64,000 nucleotides of DNA from Enterobacteria phage Kha5h: the sequence record NC_054905.1; one strand, 5' to 3'. Position 1 is the first letter of the stretch, and every line of letters begins with the position of its first letter. The notes below the pieces were generated by a model that was given only the letters and a program-made list of their open reading frames with translations, made no database searches and had not been told where the DNA came from. Positions 5,613-44,501 of the stretch are shown here, one piece after another. The translations under genes were made by a program, and so were the position numbers.

Positions 5613-8600
5613 ATGGCCGAGATTAAAAGAAAGTTCAGAGCAGAAGATGGTCTGGACGCAGGTGGTGATAAAATAATCAACGTAGCTTTAGCTGATCGTA
5701 CCGTAGGAACTGACGGTGTTAACGTTGATTACTTAATTCAAGAAAACACAGTTCAACAATACGATCCAACTCGTGGATATTTAAAAGATTTTGTAATCAT
5801 TTATGATAATCGCTTTTGGGCTGCTATAAATGATATTCCAAAACCGGCAGGAGCTTTTAATAGCGGACGCTGGAGAGCATTACGTACCGATGCTAACTGG
5901 ATTACGGTTTCATCTGGTTCATATCAATTAAAATCTGGTGAAGCTATTTCGGTTAACACCGCAGCTGGTAATGATATTACATTTACTTTACCATCTACCC
6001 CAATTGATGGTGATACTATCGTTCTCCAAGATATTGGAGGAAAACCTGGAGTTAACCAAGTTTTAATTGTAGCTCCAGTGCAAAGTATTGTAAACTTCAG
6101 AGGCGAACAAGTACGTTCAGTACTAATGACTCATCCAAAGTCACAGTTAGTTTTAATTTTTAGTAATCGTCTGTGGCAAATGTATGTAGCTGATTATAGT
6201 AGAGAAGCTGTAGTTGTAACACCAGCGAATACTTATCAAGCGCAATCCAACGACTTTATCGTACGTAGATTTACTTCTGCTGCACCGATAAATATTAAAC
6301 TTCCGAGATTTGCTAATCACGGCGATATTATTAATTTCGTCGATTTGGATAAATTAAACCCTCTTTATCATACAATTGTTACGACATACGATGAAACGAC
6401 ATCAGTACAAGAAGATGGAACTCATTCCATTGAAGGCCGTACATCGATTGATGGCTTTTTAATGTATGATGATAACGAAAAATTATGGAGACTGTTTGAC
6501 GGGGACAGTAAAGCACGTTTACGCATTATAACAACCAATTCTAATATTCGTCCAAATGAAGAAGTTATGGTATTTGGTGCGAATAATGGAACAACCCAAA
6601 CAATTGAACTTCAGCTTCCAACTAATATTTCTGTTGGTGATACTGTTAAAATTTCCATGAATTACATGAGAAAAGGACAAACAGTTAAAATCAAAGCTGC
6701 CGGTGAAGATAAAATTGCTTCTTCGGTTCAATTGTTGCAATTCCCAAAACGCTCAGAATATCCGCCTGAAGCTGAATGGGTTACAGTCCAAGAATTAGTT
6801 TTTAACGGTGAAACTAATTATGTTCCAGTTTTACAACTTGCTTATATTGAAGATTCTGATGGAAAATATTGGGTTGTACAGCAAAACGTTCCAACTGTCG
6901 AAAGAGTAGATTCTTTAAATGATTCTACTAGAGCAAGATTAGGCGTAATTGCTTTAGCTACACAAGCTCAAGCTAACGTCGATTTAGAAAATTCTCCACA
7001 AAAAGAATTAGCAATTACTCCAGAAACATTAGCTAACCGTACTGCTACAGAAACTCGTAGAGGTATCGCAAGAATAGCAACTACTGCTCAAGTGAATCAG
7101 AACACCACATTCTCTTTTGCTGATGATATTATCATCACTCCTAAAAAGCTGAATGAAAGAACTGCTACAGAAACTCGTAGAGGTGTTGCTGAAATTGCTA
7201 CGCAACAGGAAACTAATGCAGGTACTGATGATACTACAATCATCACTCCTAAAAAGCTTCAAGCTCGACAAGGTTCTGAATCATTATCTGGTATTGTAAC
7301 CTTTGTATCTACCGCAGGAGCTACTCCAGCTTCTAGCCGTGAATTAAATGGTACGAATGTTTATAATAAAAACACTAATAATTTAGTTGTTTCGCCAAAA
7401 GCTTTGGATCAATATAAAGCTACTCCAACGCAACAAGGTGCAGTAATTTTAGCAGTTGAAAGTGAAGTAATTGCTGGACAAAGCCAAGAAGGATGGGCAA
7501 ATGCGGTTGTAACGCCAGAAACGTTACATAAAAAGACATCAACTGATGGAAGAATTGGTTTAATTGAAATTGCTACGCAAAGTGAAGTTAATACAGGAAC
7601 TGATTATACTCGTGCAGTCACTCCTAAAACTTTAAATGACCGTAGAGCAACTGAAAGTTTAAGTGGTATAGCTAAAATTGCTACACAAGTTGAATTCGAC
7701 GCAGGCGTCGACGATACTCGTATCTCTACACCATTAAAAATTAAAACTAGATTTAATAGTACTGATCGTACTTCTGTTGTTGCTCTATCTGGATTAGTTG
7801 AATCAGGAACTCTCTGGGACCATTATACCCTTAATATTCTTGAAGCAAATGAGACACAGCGTGGTACACTTCGTGTAGCTACACAGGTTGAAGCTGCTGC
7901 AGGAACATTAGATAATGTTTTAATAACTCCTAAAAAGCTTTTAGGTACTAAATCTACCGAAGCACAGGAAGGTGTTATTAAAGTTGCAACTCAGTCTGAA
8001 ACTGTAGCTGGAACGTCAGCGAACACTGCTGTATCTCCAAAAAATTTAAAATGGATTGTGCAGAGTGAACCTACTTGGGCAGCTACTACTGCAATAAGAG
8101 GTTTTGTTAAAACTTCATCTGGTTCAATTACATTCGTTGGTAATGATACAGTCGGTTCTACCCAAGATTTAGAACTGTATGAGAAAAATAGCTATGCGGT
8201 ATCACCATATGAATTAAACCGTGTATTAGCAAATTATTTGCCATTAAAAGCAAAAGCTGCTGATACAAATTTATTGGATGGTCTAGATTCATCTCAGTTC
8301 ATTCGTAGGGATATTGCACAGACAGTTAATGGTTCACTAACCTTAACCCAACAAACGAATCTGAGTGCCCCTCTTGTATCATCTAGTACTGGTGAATTTG
8401 GTGGTTCATTGGCCGCTAACTCAGCATTTACTATCCGTAACACAGGAACTATGACGCCCCGTATCGTTTTCGAAAAAGGTCCTGCATCTGGTGCAAACCC
8501 GGCACAGTCAATGAGTATTCGTGTATGGGGTAACCAATTTGGTGGCGGTAGTGATACGACTCGTTCGACAGTGCTTGAAGTTGGCGATGAAACATCTTAT

Positions 8601-16103: not shown

Positions 16104-16135
16104 TTTTTGAATAAATATCCTTAAAAGGAGGGTCT

Positions 16136-16792
16136 ATGGCAGCACCTAGAATATCATTTTCGCCCTCTGATATTCTGTTTGGTGTTCTAGATCGCTTGTT
16201 CAAAGATAACGCTACCGGGAAGGTTCTTGCTTCCCGGGTAGCTGTCGTAATTCTTTTGTTTATAATGGCGATTGTTTGGTATAGGGGAGATAGTTTCTTT
16301 GAGTACTATAAGCAATCAAAGTATGAAACATACAGTGAAATTATTGAAAAGGAAAGAAATGCACGCTTTGAATCTGTCGCCCTGGAACAACTCCAGATAG
16401 TTCATATATCATCTGAGGCAGACTTTAGTGCGGTGTATTCTTTCCGCCCTAAAAACTTAAACTATTTTGTTGATATTATAGCATACGAAGGAAGATTACC
16501 TTCAACAATAACTGAAAAATCACTTGGAGGATATCCTGTTGATAAAACTATGGATGAATATACAGTTCATTTAAATGGACGTCATTATTATTCTGACTCA
16601 AAATTTGCTTTTTTACCAACTAAAAAGCCTACTCCCGAAATAAACTACATGTACAGTTGTCCATATTTTAATTTGGATAATATCTATGCTGGAACGATAA
16701 CCATGTACTGGTATAGAAATGATCATATAAGTAATGACCGCCTTGAATCAATATGTGCCCAGGCGGCCAGAATATTAGGAAGGGCTAAATAA
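16136..16792 (+). CDS. t: holin
   Basis: 218 aa, MAAPRISFSPSDILFGVLDRLFKDN..., matches T4 holin T. Confidence 0.96.
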   Translation: MAAPRISFSPSDILFGVLDRLFKDNATGKVLASRVAVVILLFIMAIVWYRGDSFFEYYKQSKYETYSEIIEKERNARFESVALEQLQIVHISSEADFSAVYSFRPKNLNYFVDIIAYEGRLPSTITEKSLGGYPVDKTMDEYTVHLNGRHYYSDSKFAFLPTKKPTPEINYMYSCPYFNLDNIYAGTITMYWYRNDHISNDRLESICAQAARILGRAK

Positions 16793-40140: not shown

Positions 40141-40377
40141 TTAACCACCTATTTCTGTAGGCGTAAACATTGCAGCATTCTTAGTTTTCCAGTCAGCTGC
40201 ATCAGAAACTACAGTAGAATATGCCGCCTTTTCAGAAGGAAAGGTCTGATAATAAGAATCTGCAATACGATGCTCGTTAGAATAGATTTCAAATGGAACA
40301 GAAACTTCCATACCTTTAACTTCTTTGCCTTCACCTGCTGGATGAGTAAAGGTCTTGATGTTAACGAAACCACCCAT
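40141..40377 (-). CDS. soc: small outer capsid protein Soc
   Basis: 78 aa; ...YQTFPSEKAAYSTV... resembles T4 Soc. Confidence 0.75.
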   Translation of the reverse strand: MGGFVNIKTFTHPAGEGKEVKGMEVSVPFEIYSNEHRIADSYYQTFPSEKAAYSTVVSDAADWKTKNAAMFTPTEIGG

Positions 40378-40411: not shown

Positions 40412-41248
40412 TTATAAACCATTTTCAAACCTCTTTATCATATTTATATAGTTTTCATCGGGATAACCTAGACTAACTGCTAACTTTCTAAAATTGACAT
40501 ATTTAGGTTTGTTGTTATTAATCCATAATTCTCTAAGCTCTTTTTCATAATTCCATTTAAGTTGATTTCTGCGTGCAGTTTTGCTTAAAGTTTTTCCTTT
40601 AGCTTTTAAAGCTTTTTCGGATGATTGTTTTAATTTTTGAATATTTAAAACTTCTTCTATAGATAAATTATTTTCCTTTGAATACCTTATGCAAAAATCT
40701 TTTACTACGGCTATTAGGCAATTTTTGTGAGTACCTAAAATTTCTGGGTTATTTTCTTCAACTAAAATTCCCCAATATCTTCGGTAGCGAGGCATATCCC
40801 TTGAAATCCAGTCATTATACCAAAAATCAAAGTTGGAATACATGAAAGATTTTCTTTTGCGAAGAGTATCTTGGTTTATCCATTGCTCACGTTTATCAGC
40901 CCATAACTTAATAGTAAAGTCTTTCTCTAAGTCAGAAAGCTTCTTAAATTGCGAGCTATTTACTGAGGTCATTCTCTGGAATGCATTCAGCAATCCAAAT
41001 CTTCCAGTTGAACATAAGAGATAGTGAACATATATGTGTTGATATATTGGGAGATATACTCTATTCCAAGGATATATTTTAAAATCACTATACTCAGGAA
41101 ATGCGCATTTAGGAAGTATATGATGGGCTTCTGTTTTAGATTTAATGTGAGTGTTTAACTTATACTTATCTATAATTTTTAAGTACTCATCTAAAAGTTC
41201 CCATTGCGGGAACTTTTCTTTAAGAGCAGATTTGAAATTAATATCCAT
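40412..41248 (-). CDS. putative HNH-family homing endonuclease
   Basis: 278 aa from ATG 41248; EAHHILPKCAFPEY...NRVYLPIYQHIYVH fits an HNH motif, basic C-terminal half; start overlaps the 3' end of gene 56. Confidence 0.65.
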   Translation of the reverse strand: MDINFKSALKEKFPQWELLDEYLKIIDKYKLNTHIKSKTEAHHILPKCAFPEYSDFKIYPWNRVYLPIYQHIYVHYLLCSTGRFGLLNAFQRMTSVNSSQFKKLSDLEKDFTIKLWADKREQWINQDTLRKRKSFMYSNFDFWYNDWISRDMPRYRRYWGILVEENNPEILGTHKNCLIAVVKDFCIRYSKENNLSIEEVLNIQKLKQSSEKALKAKGKTLSKTARRNQLKWNYEKELRELWINNNKPKYVNFRKLAVSLGYPDENYINMIKRFENGL

Positions 41249-41756
41249 TATCTTGACGTTCAAAATTATGTTTGTTCTTCAGATAATAAAGTTTAAAGAT
41301 TTCTTCAGCCGTAAGACCGAGACCTTGGAACATGTTCAGAACGAAATGAAGAATATCAATCATTTCGAATTTAATTTCCAACTGGTCTTGTGGAGACAAA
41401 TCAGTAATTAAAGTTTCACGACGTTCACCATGTTGAGCTTTCCAAGGCTTCCATACAGCAGATGCATCTTTTTCGCCATTGCTCATACCACCAAGAGAAG
41501 TCAATAGTTCGCGGAATTCATCATCAATATAATCTTTCTGATTACGCAGCCAATCAACAACTTCACCCGCAGTAGCCAAATCATCAGGATGACGGTTATA
41601 TTCAGGTTTATCTTTAGCTAAACGAACCTGAAGAGATTTCTGCATATCAAGCATAACTTGCAGCGGGTCTTTTTCATCACCGAGAATATCCCAGTATTCA
41701 TTTTGAGCTTTATCAGCGCCTTCAATCAGTTGACTACATTCGTTGAAATGTGGCAT
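41238..41756 (-). CDS. 56: dCTP pyrophosphatase gp56 (MazG-like)
   Basis: 172 aa, sequence and position. Confidence 0.88.
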   Translation of the reverse strand: MPHFNECSQLIEGADKAQNEYWDILGDEKDPLQVMLDMQKSLQVRLAKDKPEYNRHPDDLATAGEVVDWLRNQKDYIDDEFRELLTSLGGMSNGEKDASAVWKPWKAQHGERRETLITDLSPQDQLEIKFEMIDILHFVLNMFQGLGLTAEEIFKLYYLKNKHNFERQDNGY

Positions 41757-41829
41757 GTTATTTTTCCTTTCAATTCATGGGTTAGTAGATTAATTATACA
41801 ATAAATATATAAAGCAATAAGGAGGACAT

Positions 41830-42030
41830 ATGGTACAAAAATTAATGGCACTTGTTAATGCCATAAAAGGTAATAAAAAGCGTATAGCTTTTACTATTTC
41901 TGCTATGGTAGGAATTTTACTCTGGAACTTTATTCTATCACCTGTTGCAATTGCGCATGGTATTAATATTCCAGTAGTTACTCTTGATACATTTGTAGAT
42001 TTAGCATTTGCTTTAGTTGGGTTGATTTAA
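41830..42030 (+). CDS. small hydrophobic protein (66 aa) on the opposite strand to the surrounding early genes
   Basis: strong SD AAGGAGG 7 nt before ATG; two hydrophobic segments; AT-rich TAAATATATAAAG upstream. Confidence 0.45.
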   Translation: MVQKLMALVNAIKGNKKRIAFTISAMVGILLWNFILSPVAIAHGINIPVVTLDTFVDLAFALVGLI

Positions 42031-43055
42031 ATCTTAGCATATTTAGATAGCCGCATTTTAGCCATCAACCCCTGGGCAATATTATTTTTCATATATTCCA
42101 TAATTTGTTCAGGGGTTGCACCTTCCTTTCTAATCATATCATTGACATCTTTTGATTTCCAGGGAGATTTATCCCAAAACATAACCCTTTCTCCTGCATC
42201 AACTAATTTAGTCATTCGCTTAATAGTGTCAGGATGACGAGGTTCATTATCTAAAACCCACACACGTCTATCTTTAAATGGAACAACTTCTAGGTCTAAT
42301 TGACCACCCGTAATAGCTATACCATTTTCAATAAAAAGTGAATCTATAGGTCCTTCTAGAACATATACATCACCATCTTTAACTCGTTCGACTCCATAGA
42401 TTTTTGTTGCTTCAGGATAAGCTTTGATGGTGATATATTTTTGAGGAGCATCTTTCTTTAATGCACGTCCTTGAAAAGACTCAGCTTTTCCATTAGCATT
42501 ATAAATTGGAATAACAAGACGAGGCTCAGAAATTTCCTTTTTGTATGTTCCTGGTGCTATGCTATTAACTAATTTAGGCCATTCGGTTGTAAACCAAAGA
42601 TATTTCCATTTATCCTTTGGAATACAACGAGCTTTTACATATTTTATAATTGCATGGTCTTCCGCCAGTTTATCTAATCGAACACATGACGGAAGAGATT
42701 TAATTATTTTCTTCTCAGGTTGTTTAGGAAGTTCTTTAGGTTTTTCTACTGGACGACTTTTACCTTTTTCTTTTCTTATTTCAAAGATATACTCACGATA
42801 TAAATCAGGTTCAAACTCCTTTAAATATATTCCGATTGGTGCATGATAGTTACAGTTATAACAATGAATATTTCCTTCATTATTATCACCATAATACCAT
42901 CCACGAGCTTTATTCTGGTCGGTTTTTGAATCTCCACAAACAGGACATCTAAACCGTAATTTAAAAGTTGAACTATTATTTACTTGTGTGAATTTAGGTA
43001 AATGAGCTAATGCACGGTATGCAAACTCATTATCAATCCAAGGTATTGATGACAT
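42027..43055 (-). CDS. 61: DNA primase gp61
   Basis: 342 aa; zinc-ribbon CPVC...CYNC and Toprim region. Confidence 0.95.
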   Translation of the reverse strand: MSSIPWIDNEFAYRALAHLPKFTQVNNSSTFKLRFRCPVCGDSKTDQNKARGWYYGDNNEGNIHCYNCNYHAPIGIYLKEFEPDLYREYIFEIRKEKGKSRPVEKPKELPKQPEKKIIKSLPSCVRLDKLAEDHAIIKYVKARCIPKDKWKYLWFTTEWPKLVNSIAPGTYKKEISEPRLVIPIYNANGKAESFQGRALKKDAPQKYITIKAYPEATKIYGVERVKDGDVYVLEGPIDSLFIENGIAITGGQLDLEVVPFKDRRVWVLDNEPRHPDTIKRMTKLVDAGERVMFWDKSPWKSKDVNDMIRKEGATPEQIMEYMKNNIAQGLMAKMRLSKYAKI

Positions 43056-43057
43056 TT

Positions 43058-43222
43058 TTACTCTTCTTTTTCTTTAGATTCCTCTTTTTTCTTTTTAGGA
43101 ATCTGCTCAGGGCCTTTATTTACTACAGCGCCTGACGTTGTTCCAGTAGAGATATTTTCAGGATTACCACCTGAATCTCCAGCGACCATATCTTCTTTAA
43201 TAAATTCTTTATATGTTTTCAT
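43058..43222 (-). CDS. possible small protein (54 aa)
   Basis: hand-translated MKTYKEFIKEDMVAGDSGGNPENISTGTTSGAVVNKGPEQIPKKKKEESKEKEE; ATG lies inside the 49-bp junction repeat. Confidence 0.45.
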   Translation of the reverse strand: MKTYKEFIKEDMVAGDSGGNPENISTGTTSGAVVNKGPEQIPKKKKEESKEKEE

Positions 43223-43268
43223 ATTAACCTCTATTCATAAAAGCATTAAAAATTTGGTCATCAATAGA
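43220..43268. repeat. 49-bp direct repeat, copy 1 (gene-junction repeat)
   Basis: 48/49 identical to 43578..43626; covers the last 14 codons, stop, and next start codon. Confidence 0.9.
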
Positions 43269-43580
43269 TGGAATAGCAACCTTTTCGGCATCATTTAGCA
43301 AATCATTAATTTCATCAGATAGCATAACACATGTGCCTTTATTTCCTGTAATTGTTACTGCACAATTACGAACGTTTTCTTTATCAAATTTTAGGTTAAT
43401 ATTTTCGTAGTGAAAATCCTTTAATGCCGAATATATCTTTAAAATGAAATTGTCTTTTACTACAATAAACCCAACTTCACTATTAAAACGTGGTTCATGG
43501 AAACTGTAATAAACCTTTTCATCTATAAAATCGTATGAAATTTTTTCCATTTTTAAATATGAAAATTCAGAACTATACAT
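43224..43580 (-). CDS. hypothetical protein (118 aa), paralog of the adjacent 208-aa protein
   Basis: shares C-terminal SIDDQIFNAFMNRG and an F(I/V)VKDNxI motif with 43582..44208. Confidence 0.6.
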   Translation of the reverse strand: MYSSEFSYLKMEKISYDFIDEKVYYSFHEPRFNSEVGFIVVKDNFILKIYSALKDFHYENINLKFDKENVRNCAVTITGNKGTCVMLSDEINDLLNDAEKVAIPSIDDQIFNAFMNRG

Positions 43581-43626
43581 ATTAACCTTTATTCATAAAA
43601 GCATTAAAAATTTGGTCATCAATAGA
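43578..43626. repeat. 49-bp direct repeat, copy 2
   Basis: see copy 1. Confidence 0.9.
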
Positions 43627-44208
43627 AACATTTACTTTAGACTGTTTTTCAGATGGCAATTCATATCCACATATTACAATTTTATGATCAATATTAAAAT
43701 ACACAGAAGCAATATGATTAATGATATTTTCAGTGAAGTCTAAATCGACATCAATATCTTTTTGACCAAAGCCCAAAGGATAAATAATGCGAGTAATTCG
43801 ATTATCTTTAACAAAGATTCCACCGACATACTCTGTACTGCGTTTAAAGTCTACACGCCGACGAAATGAAAAATATTCAGGCTCTCTATGAGCTCGGCTC
43901 ATAGGACACAACGAGTAACTAGAATAAGAGATGTCAAATCCTACACCTTCGATATGAGCCAAAGTGTTATGATTAAACCAATTATAATCGTACGCCAAAT
44001 CCATTAGATTATAATATGTAAAAGGCACCGGATTAACATCATTAGTCACAAGCATATAATTAGCAACTGCTATAATTTCATTGTTTTTAACGAATACAAA
44101 CCGTGATTGATGCGAATGACCTGGACCCGCGTTTTCACGATTAATGATATAACACTGGGCACCTTTATATTTGTATGTATCTTTGCACTTGTGCATTTGA
44201 TAGAGCAT
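43582..44208 (-). CDS. hypothetical protein (208 aa), 61.2-like by position
   Basis: track ORF with two internal copies of the FVKNN/FVKDN motif; C-terminal SIDDQIFNAFMNKG. Confidence 0.6.
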   Translation of the reverse strand: MLYQMHKCKDTYKYKGAQCYIINRENAGPGHSHQSRFVFVKNNEIIAVANYMLVTNDVNPVPFTYYNLMDLAYDYNWFNHNTLAHIEGVGFDISYSSYSLCPMSRAHREPEYFSFRRRVDFKRSTEYVGGIFVKDNRITRIIYPLGFGQKDIDVDLDFTENIINHIASVYFNIDHKIVICGYELPSEKQSKVNVSIDDQIFNAFMNKG

Positions 44209-44501
44209 TATTCACCTACCACTTCAGCGATGATATTTTTGTTATTAAAGTTTTTATCGCAATACAGAACATAATTATACTGCATTACACCACCAGACTT
44301 AAGTTGTTTTTGCACTTCAGCTTTCATTTCAGGACGATCGCGCTCAACGATATTCATAATATCCGCTTCAATTTGAGTTTCAACTTCAGTCTGATCTGCA
44401 GTCATAGACCATTCACACAAATCTTTATCATATCCTGCCATAGCAGGCTGAGCAGCGCAAGAAGCTAAAGCAAAAATTGTGGCAAAGATAAATTTTTTCA
44501 T
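44208..44501 (-). CDS. sp: periplasmic protein Spackle-like (superinfection exclusion)
   Basis: 97 aa with N-terminal signal peptide MKKFIFATIFALASCAAQPAMA, size and position as T4 sp. Confidence 0.7.
   Translation of the reverse strand: MKKFIFATIFALASCAAQPAMAGYDKDLCEWSMTADQTEVETQIEADIMNIVERDRPEMKAEVQKQLKSGGVMQYNYVLYCDKNFNNKNIIAEVVGE

What the first reader, a model, noticed from the sequence alone, without database searches (positions are those of the whole stretch)
41790..42030. Opposite-strand small membrane protein gene between genes 56 and 61
Within a long run of leftward early genes, a 66-aa plus-strand ORF at 41830..42030 has a near-perfect Shine-Dalgarno (AAGGAGG, 7-nt spacing) and two hydrophobic segments. 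Its stop overlaps the primase stop codon region convergently. Upstream is an AT-rich TAAATATATAAAG that loosely resembles the late TATAAATA box. An independently transcribed small membrane protein here is unusual and could act in lysis timing, superinfection exclusion or defence evasion.
Basis: seen in the sequence. Interest (0 to 1): 0.5.

Follow-up and report, generated by a model that had tools for sequence, protein, structure and literature searches.

The report
Overlooked late membrane-protein gene in T-even phages
The small opposite-strand reading frame next to the primase gene is a real, conserved T4-family gene for a 66-residue membrane protein, probably switched on late in infection; many phage records list it as "hypothetical", the reference T4 annotation omits it, and its function is unknown.

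Summary
ORF 41830..42030 (+) is a genuine gene. It lies tail-to-tail with primase gene 61 in at least ten genera of T4-like phages, including T4 itself (98.5% identical). It evolves under clear purifying selection: Bp7 vs JS98 gives pS 0.79 and pN 0.09.

Every first-copy ortholog examined has a T4 late-promoter box 13-22 nt upstream of the start codon, followed by a Shine-Dalgarno site. In this window the box is AATAAATA at 41800-41807. The holin gene t in the same window carries the same box and the same AAGGAGG with a 4-nt spacer.

The product is predicted as a basic N-terminal segment, one long membrane helix with invariant Trp-Asn...Pro, a Gly/Pro turn and a short acidic C-terminal helix. 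Charge bias suggests N-in, C-out.

The family is PHROG 2024 (unknown function), also named RB32ORF030w and bas37_0144. T4 RefSeq NC_000866 does not annotate it, so the T4 omics and CRISPRi screens read here did not score it. A transposon screen classed the apparent Bas37 ortholog as non-essential.

Distant relatives in non-T4 phages follow endonuclease VII, often near a T4-type lysozyme.

Function is unresolved. My best guess is a dispensable late envelope or lysis accessory. The ORF is catalogued but uncharacterised; interest is moderate to low.

The parts
41800..41807 (+). Predicted gp55-type late promoter -10 box, AATAAATA (the A(-13) variant of TATAAATA)
   Evidence: Sequence. It is one of only 5 AATAAATA in 64 kb, against 13.8 expected. 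All 15 first-copy T4-like orthologs examined have xxTAAATA ending 13-22 nt before the ATG. The same variant precedes the holin gene t at 16110-16117. A(-13) is the commonest natural variant, at 9 of 50 sites. Promoter activity itself was not measured.
41811..41815 (+). Inferred transcription start, about 41813 (6 nt after the -10 box), giving a leader of about 17 nt
   Evidence: Inferred from the published geometry of T4 late promoters, where the box occupies -13 to -6. Not mapped.
41819..41825 (+). Shine-Dalgarno site AAGGAGG, 4 nt before the ATG
   Evidence: An SD (GGAGG, AGGAGG or AGGAG) is kept before every ortholog. The holin gene t in this window has the identical AAGGAGG with a 4-nt spacer.
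41830..42030 (+). Coding sequence, 66 codons plus TAA; PHROG 2024 member
   Evidence: phrog_2024 E = 1.4e-31. Purifying selection. 691 phage records including T4 and T6.
41830..41883 (+). Residues 1-18: short amphipathic helix (2-11) and a basic patch (K13, K16, K17, R18); predicted cytoplasmic
   Evidence: AlphaFold helix 2-11. Across 25 family members the N-terminal segments hold 120 K+R against 48 D+E.
41884..41955 (+). Residues 19-42: membrane helix with invariant W32, N33 and P38, and nearly invariant A40
   Evidence: Hydropathy. AlphaFold helix 15-42, pLDDT 86-88. Invariant columns.
41956..42027 (+). Residues 43-66: Gly/Pro turn (G44, P48, V50), then a short hydrophobic helix with acidic residues D53 and D57; predicted periplasmic or interfacial
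   Evidence: Across 25 members the tails hold 13 K+R against 37 D+E. A second membrane pass cannot be excluded.
42027..42030 (.). Convergent 4-nt overlap of the two stop codons (this ORF and primase gene 61)
   Evidence: The tail-to-tail link to gene 61 is kept in T4, Mosigvirus, Gaprivervirus, Dhakavirus JS98, Marfavirus, Kanagawavirus, Mosugukvirus, Gelderlandvirus and Moonvirus. The junction ranges from a 24-nt overlap to a 2-nt gap. In Bp7 a homing endonuclease gene is inserted between the two.
42027..43055 (-). Neighbour: gene 61 DNA primase (342 aa)
   Evidence: annotations, weak DNAG_N match.
41238..41756 (-). Neighbour: gene 56 dCTPase. T4's dam gene, which lies between 56 and this ORF in T4, is absent here
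42066..42118 (+). Possible 3' hairpin of the late mRNA (14-bp stem) inside the antisense of the gene 61 3' end; status uncertain
   Evidence: The 121-nt stretch that contains it folds at -29.8 kcal/mol, z = -3.1. A similar hairpin appears in many but not all lineages. The covariation test was not better than shuffles and RNAalifold gave no consensus structure. No canonical U-tract follows it.
41845..41864 (-). Terminator-like hairpin with a T-run on the minus strand (downstream of gene 61), lying inside codons 6-12 of the ORF
   Evidence: One search found one such site, against 1.2 expected by chance, so it is weak evidence.

Best explanation
This is a genuine, conserved gene of the T-even phage group (PHROG 2024; RB32ORF030w in RB32/RB51; apparently bas37_0144 in Bas37). 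The reference T4 annotation lacks it.

Shown by comparison:
- It encodes a 66-residue protein under purifying selection.
- It stays tail-to-tail with primase gene 61 in every lineage examined.
- It carries its own T4 late-promoter box and a strong ribosome-binding site.

Inferred:
- Late in infection, gp55-RNA polymerase starts at about 41813 and makes a short clockwise mRNA. This mRNA runs antisense into the end of gene 61.
- The product inserts into the inner membrane with its basic N-terminus in the cytoplasm.
- It has one membrane helix, and its short acidic C-terminal helix sits on the periplasmic side.
- The invariant Trp-Asn...Pro in the membrane helix is the kind of polar motif that drives helix-helix association. 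The protein therefore most likely works by self-association or by docking onto another membrane protein.

Most likely role (about one chance in three): a dispensable accessory of the late envelope or lysis stage, tuning rather than causing lysis. It is not a canonical holin.
For: Reality of the gene:
- tblastn finds it in 691 phage records, including T4 at 98.5% and T6.
- Orthologs at 20-55% identity occupy the same position in Mosigvirus, Gaprivervirus, Dhakavirus, Marfavirus, Kanagawavirus, Mosugukvirus, Gelderlandvirus and Moonvirus.
- Substitutions follow a coding pattern: Bp7 vs JS98 differ at codon positions 1/2/3 by 8/4/35, with pS 0.79 and pN 0.09. Window vs T4 gives dN/dS of about 0.1.
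- The HMM match to phrog_2024 is full length, E = 1.4e-31.

Late expression:
- All 15 first-copy orthologs have xxTAAATA ending 13-22 nt before the ATG. The box is perfect TATAAATA in Bp7, F48 and IME523, and ATAAATA is intact in 13 of the 15.
- The octamers are depleted in the window: AATAAATA 5 observed vs 13.8 expected, TATAAATA 6 vs 9.7.
- In the same window, TATAAATA or AATAAATA sits just upstream of a 1290-aa ORF, a 220-aa ORF (which I read as tail-fibre genes 34 and 36), soc and the holin t.
- Gene t has the same AATAAATA box, the same AAGGAGG and the same 4-nt spacer.
- The A(-13) variant is the commonest one, and late transcripts run in either direction.

Membrane protein and topology:
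- Hydropathy profile.
- AlphaFold model, pLDDT 79, helices 2-11, 15-42 and 52-63.
- Charge bias: 120 K+R vs 48 D+E before the membrane helix, and 13 vs 37 after it.
- Invariant W32, N33 and P38.

Accessory, non-essential role:
- bas37_0144 has the same strand, the same 201 nt and the same 4-nt overlap with primase. Transposons hit 20 of its 24 TA sites and it was classed non-essential. Holin t and lysozyme e are essential in the T4 library.
- The second tandem copy present in VR26 has decayed in TH40.

Link to the envelope or lysis stage:
- Distant members hit only phrog_2024.
- In non-T4 phage and prophage contigs they sit in a module: a tail-tip protein, then a ~94-aa protein with one membrane segment and a coiled coil, then endonuclease VII, then the member, then a 180-aa and a 105-aa protein.
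- A T4 e-type lysozyme follows directly in two context types and lies within 4 kb in two more.
Against: - No transcript, ribosome or protein data for this ORF could be found. The T4 omics and CRISPRi studies read here used NC_000866, which lacks it. The T4 table of the transposon screen also lacks it.
- The functional guess rests only on neighbourhood and shared expression signals. The most constant neighbours of distant members are endonuclease VII and two unknown soluble proteins, not the lysozyme.
- In T4-like phages the gene is not next to any lysis gene.
- Matches to holin PHROGs are weak (best E = 5e-4, 2 of 13 distant members, none of the 28 closer ones). Hydrophobic composition alone could produce them.
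- The C-terminal hydrophobic helix could be a second membrane pass, which would change the topology.
- The Bas37 ortholog assignment is by position, strand and length. I did not check its sequence.
Confidence: 0.55

Rival explanations
1. It is a true holin or pinholin. The protein accumulates in the inner membrane and at a set time forms lethal holes that depolarise the cell and fix the time of lysis.
For: It is a small membrane protein with the same late promoter variant and SD as holin t. One submitter or UniProt label reads 'Holin' for a close homolog. There are weak hits to holin PHROGs among distant members. In the non-T4 contigs no Pfam holin family is recorded near the e-type lysozyme, and the member is one of only two membrane-protein candidates there.
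Against: There is no charged hydrophilic C-terminal tail; the tail is hydrophobic and acidic. The apparent Bas37 ortholog tolerates transposon insertions, whereas t is essential. T4-like phages already have holin T; this window's copy is at 16136, Pfam Phage_holin_T E = 3.6e-117. No significant match to any curated holin family.
Confidence: 0.07
2. It is a host-range or counter-defence factor, or protects against secondary phage adsorption late in infection. It would matter only on particular hosts or under superinfection.
For: It is non-essential on E. coli K-12 yet conserved under purifying selection across about ten genera, which is the usual signature of a conditionally useful accessory gene. 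It is a membrane protein, and the known envelope-protection gene sp lies 2 kb away at 44208-44501.
Against: A late promoter is the wrong timing for classical exclusion; by my recollection Imm and Sp are early. bas37_0144 is not among the genes the HIDEN-SEQ paper reports as conditionally essential on clinical isolates or cloned defence systems. The two comparison rows I could read gave log2FC +0.33 and +0.20, q = 1.
Confidence: 0.2
3. It serves virion assembly or DNA maturation at the membrane, for example by anchoring or organising a late assembly or packaging step.
For: In distant relatives its start overlaps the stop of endonuclease VII, the homolog of T4 gp49, which by my recollection is the packaging-associated resolvase. 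It follows the tail genes within what looks like a late operon. By my recollection, T4 prohead assembly starts on the inner membrane.
Against: It is non-essential in Bas37. No homology or contact with any structural or packaging protein was found. In T4-like phages it is not near gene 49 or the head genes.
Confidence: 0.1
4. The functional product is the late antisense transcript. Transcription from the late promoter runs into gene 61 and lowers primase expression late in infection, and the ORF is incidental.
For: The convergent 4-nt overlap leaves no room for a terminator between the genes, and the scan found no plus-strand terminator in 41000-43200. [quoted passage not shown]
Against: The reading frame, the SD and specific residues are conserved while synonymous sites are saturated, which a purely antisense function cannot explain. 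Distant members in other phages sit co-directionally inside operons with no convergent partner. An antisense side effect in addition to the protein remains possible.
Confidence: 0.04
5. It is a chance ORF in AT-rich intergenic DNA with a fortuitous SD.
For: Many ORFs of this size occur by chance in the window, and the T4 reference annotation does not call it.
Against: It is conserved across genera at 20-55% identity with a coding substitution pattern. Eight columns are invariant in the 11-sequence alignment and four in the 28-sequence alignment, with four more nearly invariant. The promoter and SD are conserved. A tandem paralog exists in VR26. Homologs occur in unrelated phages.
Confidence: 0.01

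Closest known systems
PHROG 2024 / RB32ORF030w / bas37_0144 (hypothetical proteins of T4-like phages)
   Same: It is the same family. The HMM match is full length (E = 1.4e-31). The position, strand and overlap with primase match. All source names read 'hypothetical' or 'uncharacterized'.
   Different: Nothing differs; this is the family itself. No function has been assigned to it. The reference T4 records NC_000866 and AF158101 leave the ORF unannotated.
T4 holin T (gene t) and small holins such as lambda S
   Same: It is a late-expressed inner-membrane protein. In this window, t and the ORF share the AATAAATA late box, the AAGGAGG SD and a 4-nt spacer. Distant relatives lie near a T4 e-type lysozyme.
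   Different: No sequence relationship to Phage_holin_T or any curated holin family. No charged C-terminal tail. The apparent ortholog is non-essential whereas t is essential. It is 66 aa, against 218 aa for T.
T4 lysis-timing accessories (antiholins RI and RIII; rI.-1 and rI.1)
   Same: These are small, dispensable proteins scattered around the genome that modulate rather than cause lysis (background). That matches the conserved but non-essential profile seen here.
   Different: No homology was detected. By my recollection, RI is a periplasmic domain on a releasable signal-anchor and RIII is cytoplasmic. This protein is predicted to be almost entirely membrane-embedded. No lysis phenotype is known for it.
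T4 Imm and Sp (superinfection exclusion and envelope protection)
   Same: These are small envelope-located proteins of T-even phages. The sp gene lies 2 kb away in the same window (44208-44501).
   Different: By my recollection, Imm and Sp are early genes on the leftward strand. This gene is on the opposite strand behind a late promoter box. No sequence similarity.

Membership tests
PHROG 2024 (uncharacterised phage protein family) | Significant full-length match to the family HMM | tested here: met
   E = 1.4e-31, residues 2-66 on profile positions 1-65 of 65. All 28 and all 13 aligned relatives also hit it as their best family.
PHROG 2024 (uncharacterised phage protein family) | Shared core motif [WY]-N-x4-P-x-A-x3-G-x3-P inside and after a single long hydrophobic helix, preceded by a basic N-terminus | tested here: met
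   W32, N33, P38, A40, G44, P48 and V50 are invariant or nearly so. The motif is kept in distant members.
T4 late genes (gp55/gp33/gp45-dependent transcription) | TATAAATA-type box at -13 to -6, close upstream of the gene | tested here: met
   AATAAATA at 41800-41807, 22 nt before the ATG. The A(-13) variant accounts for 9 of the 50 listed T4 late sites.
T4 late genes (gp55/gp33/gp45-dependent transcription) | The box is conserved in orthologs although the flanking sequence has diverged | tested here: met
   15 of 15 first-copy orthologs have xxTAAATA ending 13-22 nt upstream. 13 of 15 have ATAAATA and 3 have perfect TATAAATA. Operon-embedded homologs in non-T4 phages lack it.
T4 late genes (gp55/gp33/gp45-dependent transcription) | An RNA 5' end about 6 nt downstream of the box that appears late and depends on gp55, gp33, gp45 and DNA replication | not testable with these tools
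   A dRNA-seq TSS list for T4 exists (150 TSSs, 22 of them antisense), but the table is not among the held files.
Holins | Small protein with at least one transmembrane segment | tested here: met
   Hydropathy and AlphaFold helix 15-42.
Holins | Hydrophilic, highly charged (usually basic) C-terminal tail | tested here: not met
   The tail after the membrane helix has 0 K+R and 2 D+E here, and 13 K+R against 37 D+E across 25 members. It is otherwise hydrophobic.
Holins | Encoded next to the endolysin in a lysis cassette | tested here: inconclusive
   Not so in this window or in any T4-like phage; the neighbours are genes 56 (or dam) and 61. T4 lysis genes are scattered anyway. In non-T4 relatives an e-type lysozyme lies within 4 kb in 4 of 7 context types, and in two of those (L023 group, DCP80) it follows the member/180-aa/105-aa module.
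Holins | Required for lysis; null mutants fail to release phage | tested here: not met
   No experiment was run here. Published data class the apparent Bas37 ortholog as non-essential (20 of 24 TA sites hit), whereas t has zero insertion counts and e is classed essential in T4. The ortholog is assigned by position only.
Holins | Sequence membership of a described holin family | tested here: not met
   No Pfam or NCBIfam match. Only weak PHROG holin hits in 2 of 13 distant members, best E = 5e-4, and none in the 28 closer members.
T4 superinfection-exclusion proteins (Imm, Sp) | Sequence similarity to Imm or Sp, and early expression from the leftward strand | tested here: not met
   The only PHROG match is 2024. 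The gene is on the opposite strand behind a late-type box.

The most novel reading that the evidence does not exclude
The protein is a so-far-missed membrane-embedded component of the T-even lysis clock. By my recollection, RI acts on the periplasmic domain of holin T and RIII on its cytoplasmic domain. This protein would dock through its Trp-Asn...Pro helix onto the single membrane helix of T, or onto another envelope protein. It would tune hole formation, or help relay the still unidentified signal of secondary adsorption that triggers lysis inhibition. It went unnoticed because the reference T4 annotation lacks it and because loss is tolerated in the laboratory.
Probability: 0.07. Interest if true: 0.7.

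Novelty: already known. Interest (0 to 1): 0.33.

Why it matters
T4 is the reference phage for this whole group. Its RefSeq and GenBank records leave a 310-bp gap exactly where this conserved gene lies. The time-resolved T4 transcriptome and proteome study and the CRISPRi-ART screen both worked from that annotation, and the T4 gene table of the transposon screen also lacks the ORF. None of them scored it.

Adding the gene is a simple correction. It would put one more late membrane protein on the list of candidates for T-even lysis control and envelope biology. Tryptic digestion would leave essentially one usable peptide (LMALVNAIK) and a 48-residue hydrophobic fragment, so standard proteomics would probably miss it even if it were in the search database (my inference from the sequence).

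Otherwise this is an ordinary case of a small "hypothetical" phage membrane protein.

Tried and rejected
- **Curated families and structures.** Pfam, NCBIfam and PDB sequence searches with the protein and the family profile found nothing credible.
- **Fold search.** A Foldseek search of the AlphaFold model against viral structures returned only the protein's own family. A three-helix 66-residue model is too simple for fold matching to be informative.
- **Exhaustive profile search.** Searching 1.84 billion representative proteins found only 19 clusters, all 33-82 aa. The family is narrow and has no large characterised relatives.
- **Downstream RNA hairpin.** I asked whether the hairpin at 42066-42118 is a conserved terminator. 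It folds well here (z = -3.1) and recurs in many lineages. RNAalifold gave no consensus structure, and pair counts were no better than shuffles (70.3% paired vs 69.4%). Conservation of the overlapping primase codons can explain it, so I do not claim it.
- **Literature.** Searches for RB32ORF030w, phrog_2024, '61.-1' and 'dam.-1' found nothing relevant. Miller et al. 2003 (PMC150520) is not held, so I could not check whether a late promoter near T4 17.7 kb is in the published list. The T4 dRNA-seq TSS table is not held.
- **rIV.** I considered that the old rIV lysis locus, which I recalled as mapping in this part of the T4 genome, might be this gene. rIV is sp.
- **More contexts for distant members.** Single-protein scans added only three loci of context types already seen.
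- **Dual-start motif.** M1...K4...M6 resembles the lambda S dual start, and T6 has ATT at codon 1. The second Met is absent outside Tequatrovirus, so I give it no weight.

Full report
**What is in the sequence**

The window is a T4-type phage (genus Tequatrovirus). The 1.9 kb around the finding is 99.2% identical to Shigella phage Sf22 and 96-98% identical to many others. Locally the genes run leftward:
- soc at 40141..40377
- a 283-aa ORF at 40412..41263
- gene 56 (dCTPase) at 41238..41756
- gene 61 (primase) at 42027..43055
- 61.1, two 61.2-like ORFs, and sp at 44208..44501

T4 has dam between 56 and 61. This phage does not.

ATG is at 41830, TAA at 42028-42030, and the product is 66 aa. AAGGAGG lies at 41819-41825. 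The stop codon interlocks with the primase stop, giving a 4-nt convergent overlap. The SD-to-ATG gap is 4 nt, not 7.

**Is it a gene?**

Size alone says nothing, because one search lists 42 ORFs of at least 30 aa in 5 kb. Conservation settles the question.

- tblastn finds the frame in 691 phage records, including T4 (98.5%) and T6. About 190 records are below 60% identity.
- I fetched representatives of Mosigvirus, Gaprivervirus, Dhakavirus, Marfavirus, Kanagawavirus, Mosugukvirus, Gelderlandvirus and Moonvirus, plus an IMG/VR contig.
- In all of them a 61-74-aa frame lies on the same strand with its end against the end of the primase gene. What lies on the other side varies: 56, dam, a MazG-like gene or homing endonucleases.
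- Pairwise codon analysis gives the signature of a protein. Bp7 vs JS98 differ at codon positions 1/2/3 by 8/4/35, with pS 0.79 and pN 0.09. Window vs T4 gives dN/dS of about 0.1. More distant pairs have saturated synonymous sites and pN of 0.2-0.35.
- M1, W32, N33 and P38 are invariant. A40, G44, P48 and V50 are nearly invariant.
- VR26 carries two tandem paralogs, and the second copy has decayed in TH40.

The chance-ORF reading is excluded.

**How it is expressed**

Upstream of the start codon every first-copy ortholog has a T4 late-promoter-like box, then 6-14 nt, then an SD:
- AATAAATA: this window, Mosigvirus, JS98
- GATAAATA: T4, L018, PM2
- CATAAATA: VR26, TH40, VR20, L022
- perfect TATAAATA: Bp7, F48, IME523
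- ATTAAATA: CGG4-1, CF1

The box ends 13-22 nt before the ATG in all 15. The second copy in VR26 has no box of its own and starts 8 nt after the first copy ends, so it is presumably co-transcribed.

According to the Geiduschek and Kassavetis review, 50 late promoter sites are listed for T4. Of these, 32 are perfect, 9 have A at -13, and one carries a TA-to-AT change. Late transcripts run in either direction.

In this window the octamers are rarer than expected: AATAAATA 5 vs 13.8, TATAAATA 6 vs 9.7. The copies that sit just before an SD-ATG mark the following:
- a 1290-aa ORF and a 220-aa ORF, which I read as tail-fibre genes 34 and 36
- soc
- the holin gene t
- this ORF

The holin gene t is a useful internal control. 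Its upstream reads AATAAATA-tccttaa-AAGGAGG-gtct-ATG. This ORF reads AATAAATA-tataaagcaat-AAGGAGG-acat-ATG.

I therefore infer a gp55-dependent late start near 41813. This is inference only; no RNA data were available.

No plus-strand terminator was found. A stable hairpin lies at 42066-42118 inside the antisense of gene 61, and similar hairpins appear in many lineages. It failed the covariation test, so I list it only as a possibility. Without a terminator, the late mRNA must run antisense into the 3' end of gene 61.

**The protein**

AlphaFold, run with a 28-sequence alignment, gives pLDDT 79 and three helices: 2-11, 15-42 and 52-63.

Across 25 family members the segment before the long helix carries 120 K+R against 48 D+E. 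The tail after it carries 13 K+R against 37 D+E. By the positive-inside rule the N-terminus is cytoplasmic. The tail is periplasmic or interfacial, although a second membrane pass is not excluded.

The invariant Trp-Asn in mid-helix, followed by Pro, is the sort of polar motif that mediates helix-helix association in membranes. This is established knowledge applied to the sequence, so it is an inference.

There is no match to Pfam, NCBIfam or PDB sequences. The only PHROG match is 2024, of unknown function. Foldseek finds only the family itself.

**Distribution and neighbours elsewhere**

An exhaustive profile search of 1.84 billion representative proteins finds only 19 clusters, all 33-82 aa. 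Several lie outside T4-like phages. They hit only phrog_2024 and keep the motif.

Their contexts recur in this order:
- a lambda-J-like tail-tip protein
- a ~94-aa protein with one membrane segment and a coiled coil
- endonuclease VII
- the family member, whose start overlaps the endonuclease VII stop
- a basic ~180-aa protein
- a ~105-aa protein

A T4 e-type lysozyme follows directly in two context types and lies within 4 kb in two more. One contig ends in an integrase, and another places the member at a prophage edge. In phage DCP80 the member is present but unannotated (L033 5786-5959).

This places the family among late genes and near, though not always beside, an endolysin.

**Experimental information**

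Names from all sources are "hypothetical" or "uncharacterized". One submitter label reads "Holin".

- The T4 reference records do not annotate the ORF.
- The T4 time-course omics study and the CRISPRi-ART screen used that annotation, so they did not score it.
- The HIDEN-SEQ transposon study also lacks it in its T4 table. Its Bas37 annotation does contain bas37_0144, at 91945..92145 on the plus strand, overlapping primase by 4 nt.
- bas37_0144 had 20 of 24 TA sites disrupted and was classed non-essential. In the same paper's T4 tables, holin t has zero insertion counts and lysozyme e is classed essential. The two conditional comparisons I could read showed no effect (log2FC +0.33 and +0.20, q = 1).
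- I assign orthology by position, strand and length, not by sequence.

**Interpretation**

Firm conclusions:
- It is a real gene and a small membrane protein.
- Its synteny with gene 61 is conserved.
- Its late-type promoter box and SD are conserved.
- It belongs to PHROG 2024.
- It is missing from the T4 reference annotation.

Probable: late, gp55-dependent, monocistronic expression, and N-in orientation.

Tentative (about one in three): a dispensable accessory of the late envelope or lysis stage that acts by membrane-helix association.

It fails the holin tests that could be applied. It has no charged C-tail, its apparent ortholog is non-essential, and it matches no holin family. I therefore do not file it as a holin.

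The rivals that remain open are a conditional host-range or defence role, an assembly or packaging-linked role suggested by endonuclease VII, and an added antisense effect on gene 61.

**Verdict**

The ORF is already catalogued as a hypothetical protein in many genomes, so its existence is not new. What this analysis adds:
- the conserved late promoter
- signals that match those of the holin gene in the same window
- the predicted topology and core motif
- the wider family context
- the point that the reference T4 annotation, and the screens built on it, omit the gene

Interest is moderate to low.

Noticed in passing
T4 NC_000866 17738-17938 (L003 3239-3439); AF158101 likewise: The reference T4 records leave this conserved ORF unannotated, in a 310-bp gap between dam and 61. 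A newer Pharokka-annotated T4 assembly (OZ209023) does call it. The T4 omics and CRISPRi studies read here, and the T4 table of the transposon screen, inherit the omission.
   Followed up: yes
window 16110-16138: The holin gene t (16136..16792) is preceded by AATAAATA, AAGGAGG and a 4-nt spacer. These are the same three signals as the ORF under study.
   Followed up: yes
window, whole: The late-promoter octamers are under-represented relative to dinucleotide shuffles: AATAAATA 5 vs 13.8 expected (no shuffle had fewer than 5), TATAAATA 6 vs 9.7. This fits selection against stray late promoters.
   Followed up: partly
L005 (VR26) 1495-1692 and 1701-1901; L006 (TH40) about 1759-1917: Gaprivervirus VR26 carries two tandem, divergent paralogs of the gene: an A type as in T4 and a B type as in JS98 and Klebsiella phages. 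In TH40 the B copy is broken. Tequatrovirus and Mosigvirus keep only A, and the Dhakavirus, Marfavirus, Kanagawavirus, Mosugukvirus and Gelderlandvirus phages sampled keep only B.
   Followed up: partly
L002 (T6, AP018814) 2501-2701: T6 has ATT in place of the ATG start, behind an intact SD. Its annotators started the gene at Met6 and named it 'putative head morphogenesis protein', apparently through a transferred label.
   Followed up: no
L033 (Escherichia phage DCP80, PQ671644) 5786-5959: An unannotated 57-aa family member overlaps the end of the endonuclease VII gene. The record is labelled Gaprivervirus, but this region, with a lambda-J-like tail-tip protein, does not look T4-like. The assembly or the label may be wrong.
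   Followed up: partly
window 42066-42118: A 14-bp-stem inverted repeat lies inside the 3' end of gene 61, formed by the codons for ATPEQ and AQGLM. It is stable (z = -3.1) and recurs in many lineages, but it is not supported by covariation.
   Followed up: yes
window 43224-43580 and 43582-44208: Two adjacent minus-strand ORFs (118 and 208 aa; the second matches T4 61.2 in size and position) end in nearly the same sequence, SIDDQIFNAFMNRG and SIDDQIFNAFMNKG. This suggests a partial duplication or a shared C-terminal module.
   Followed up: no
window 40412-41263: A 283-aa minus-strand ORF with a TTG start lies between soc and gene 56, where T4 has segF, and overlaps the end of gene 56. It has no Pfam match. 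Related records annotate homing or HNH endonucleases in this part of the match.
   Followed up: no
L027 129-1383: In one short metagenomic contig a distant family member (P0125, 59 aa) sits directly upstream of a 352-aa RelA/SpoT-domain protein. This is a different context from all the others.
   Followed up: no
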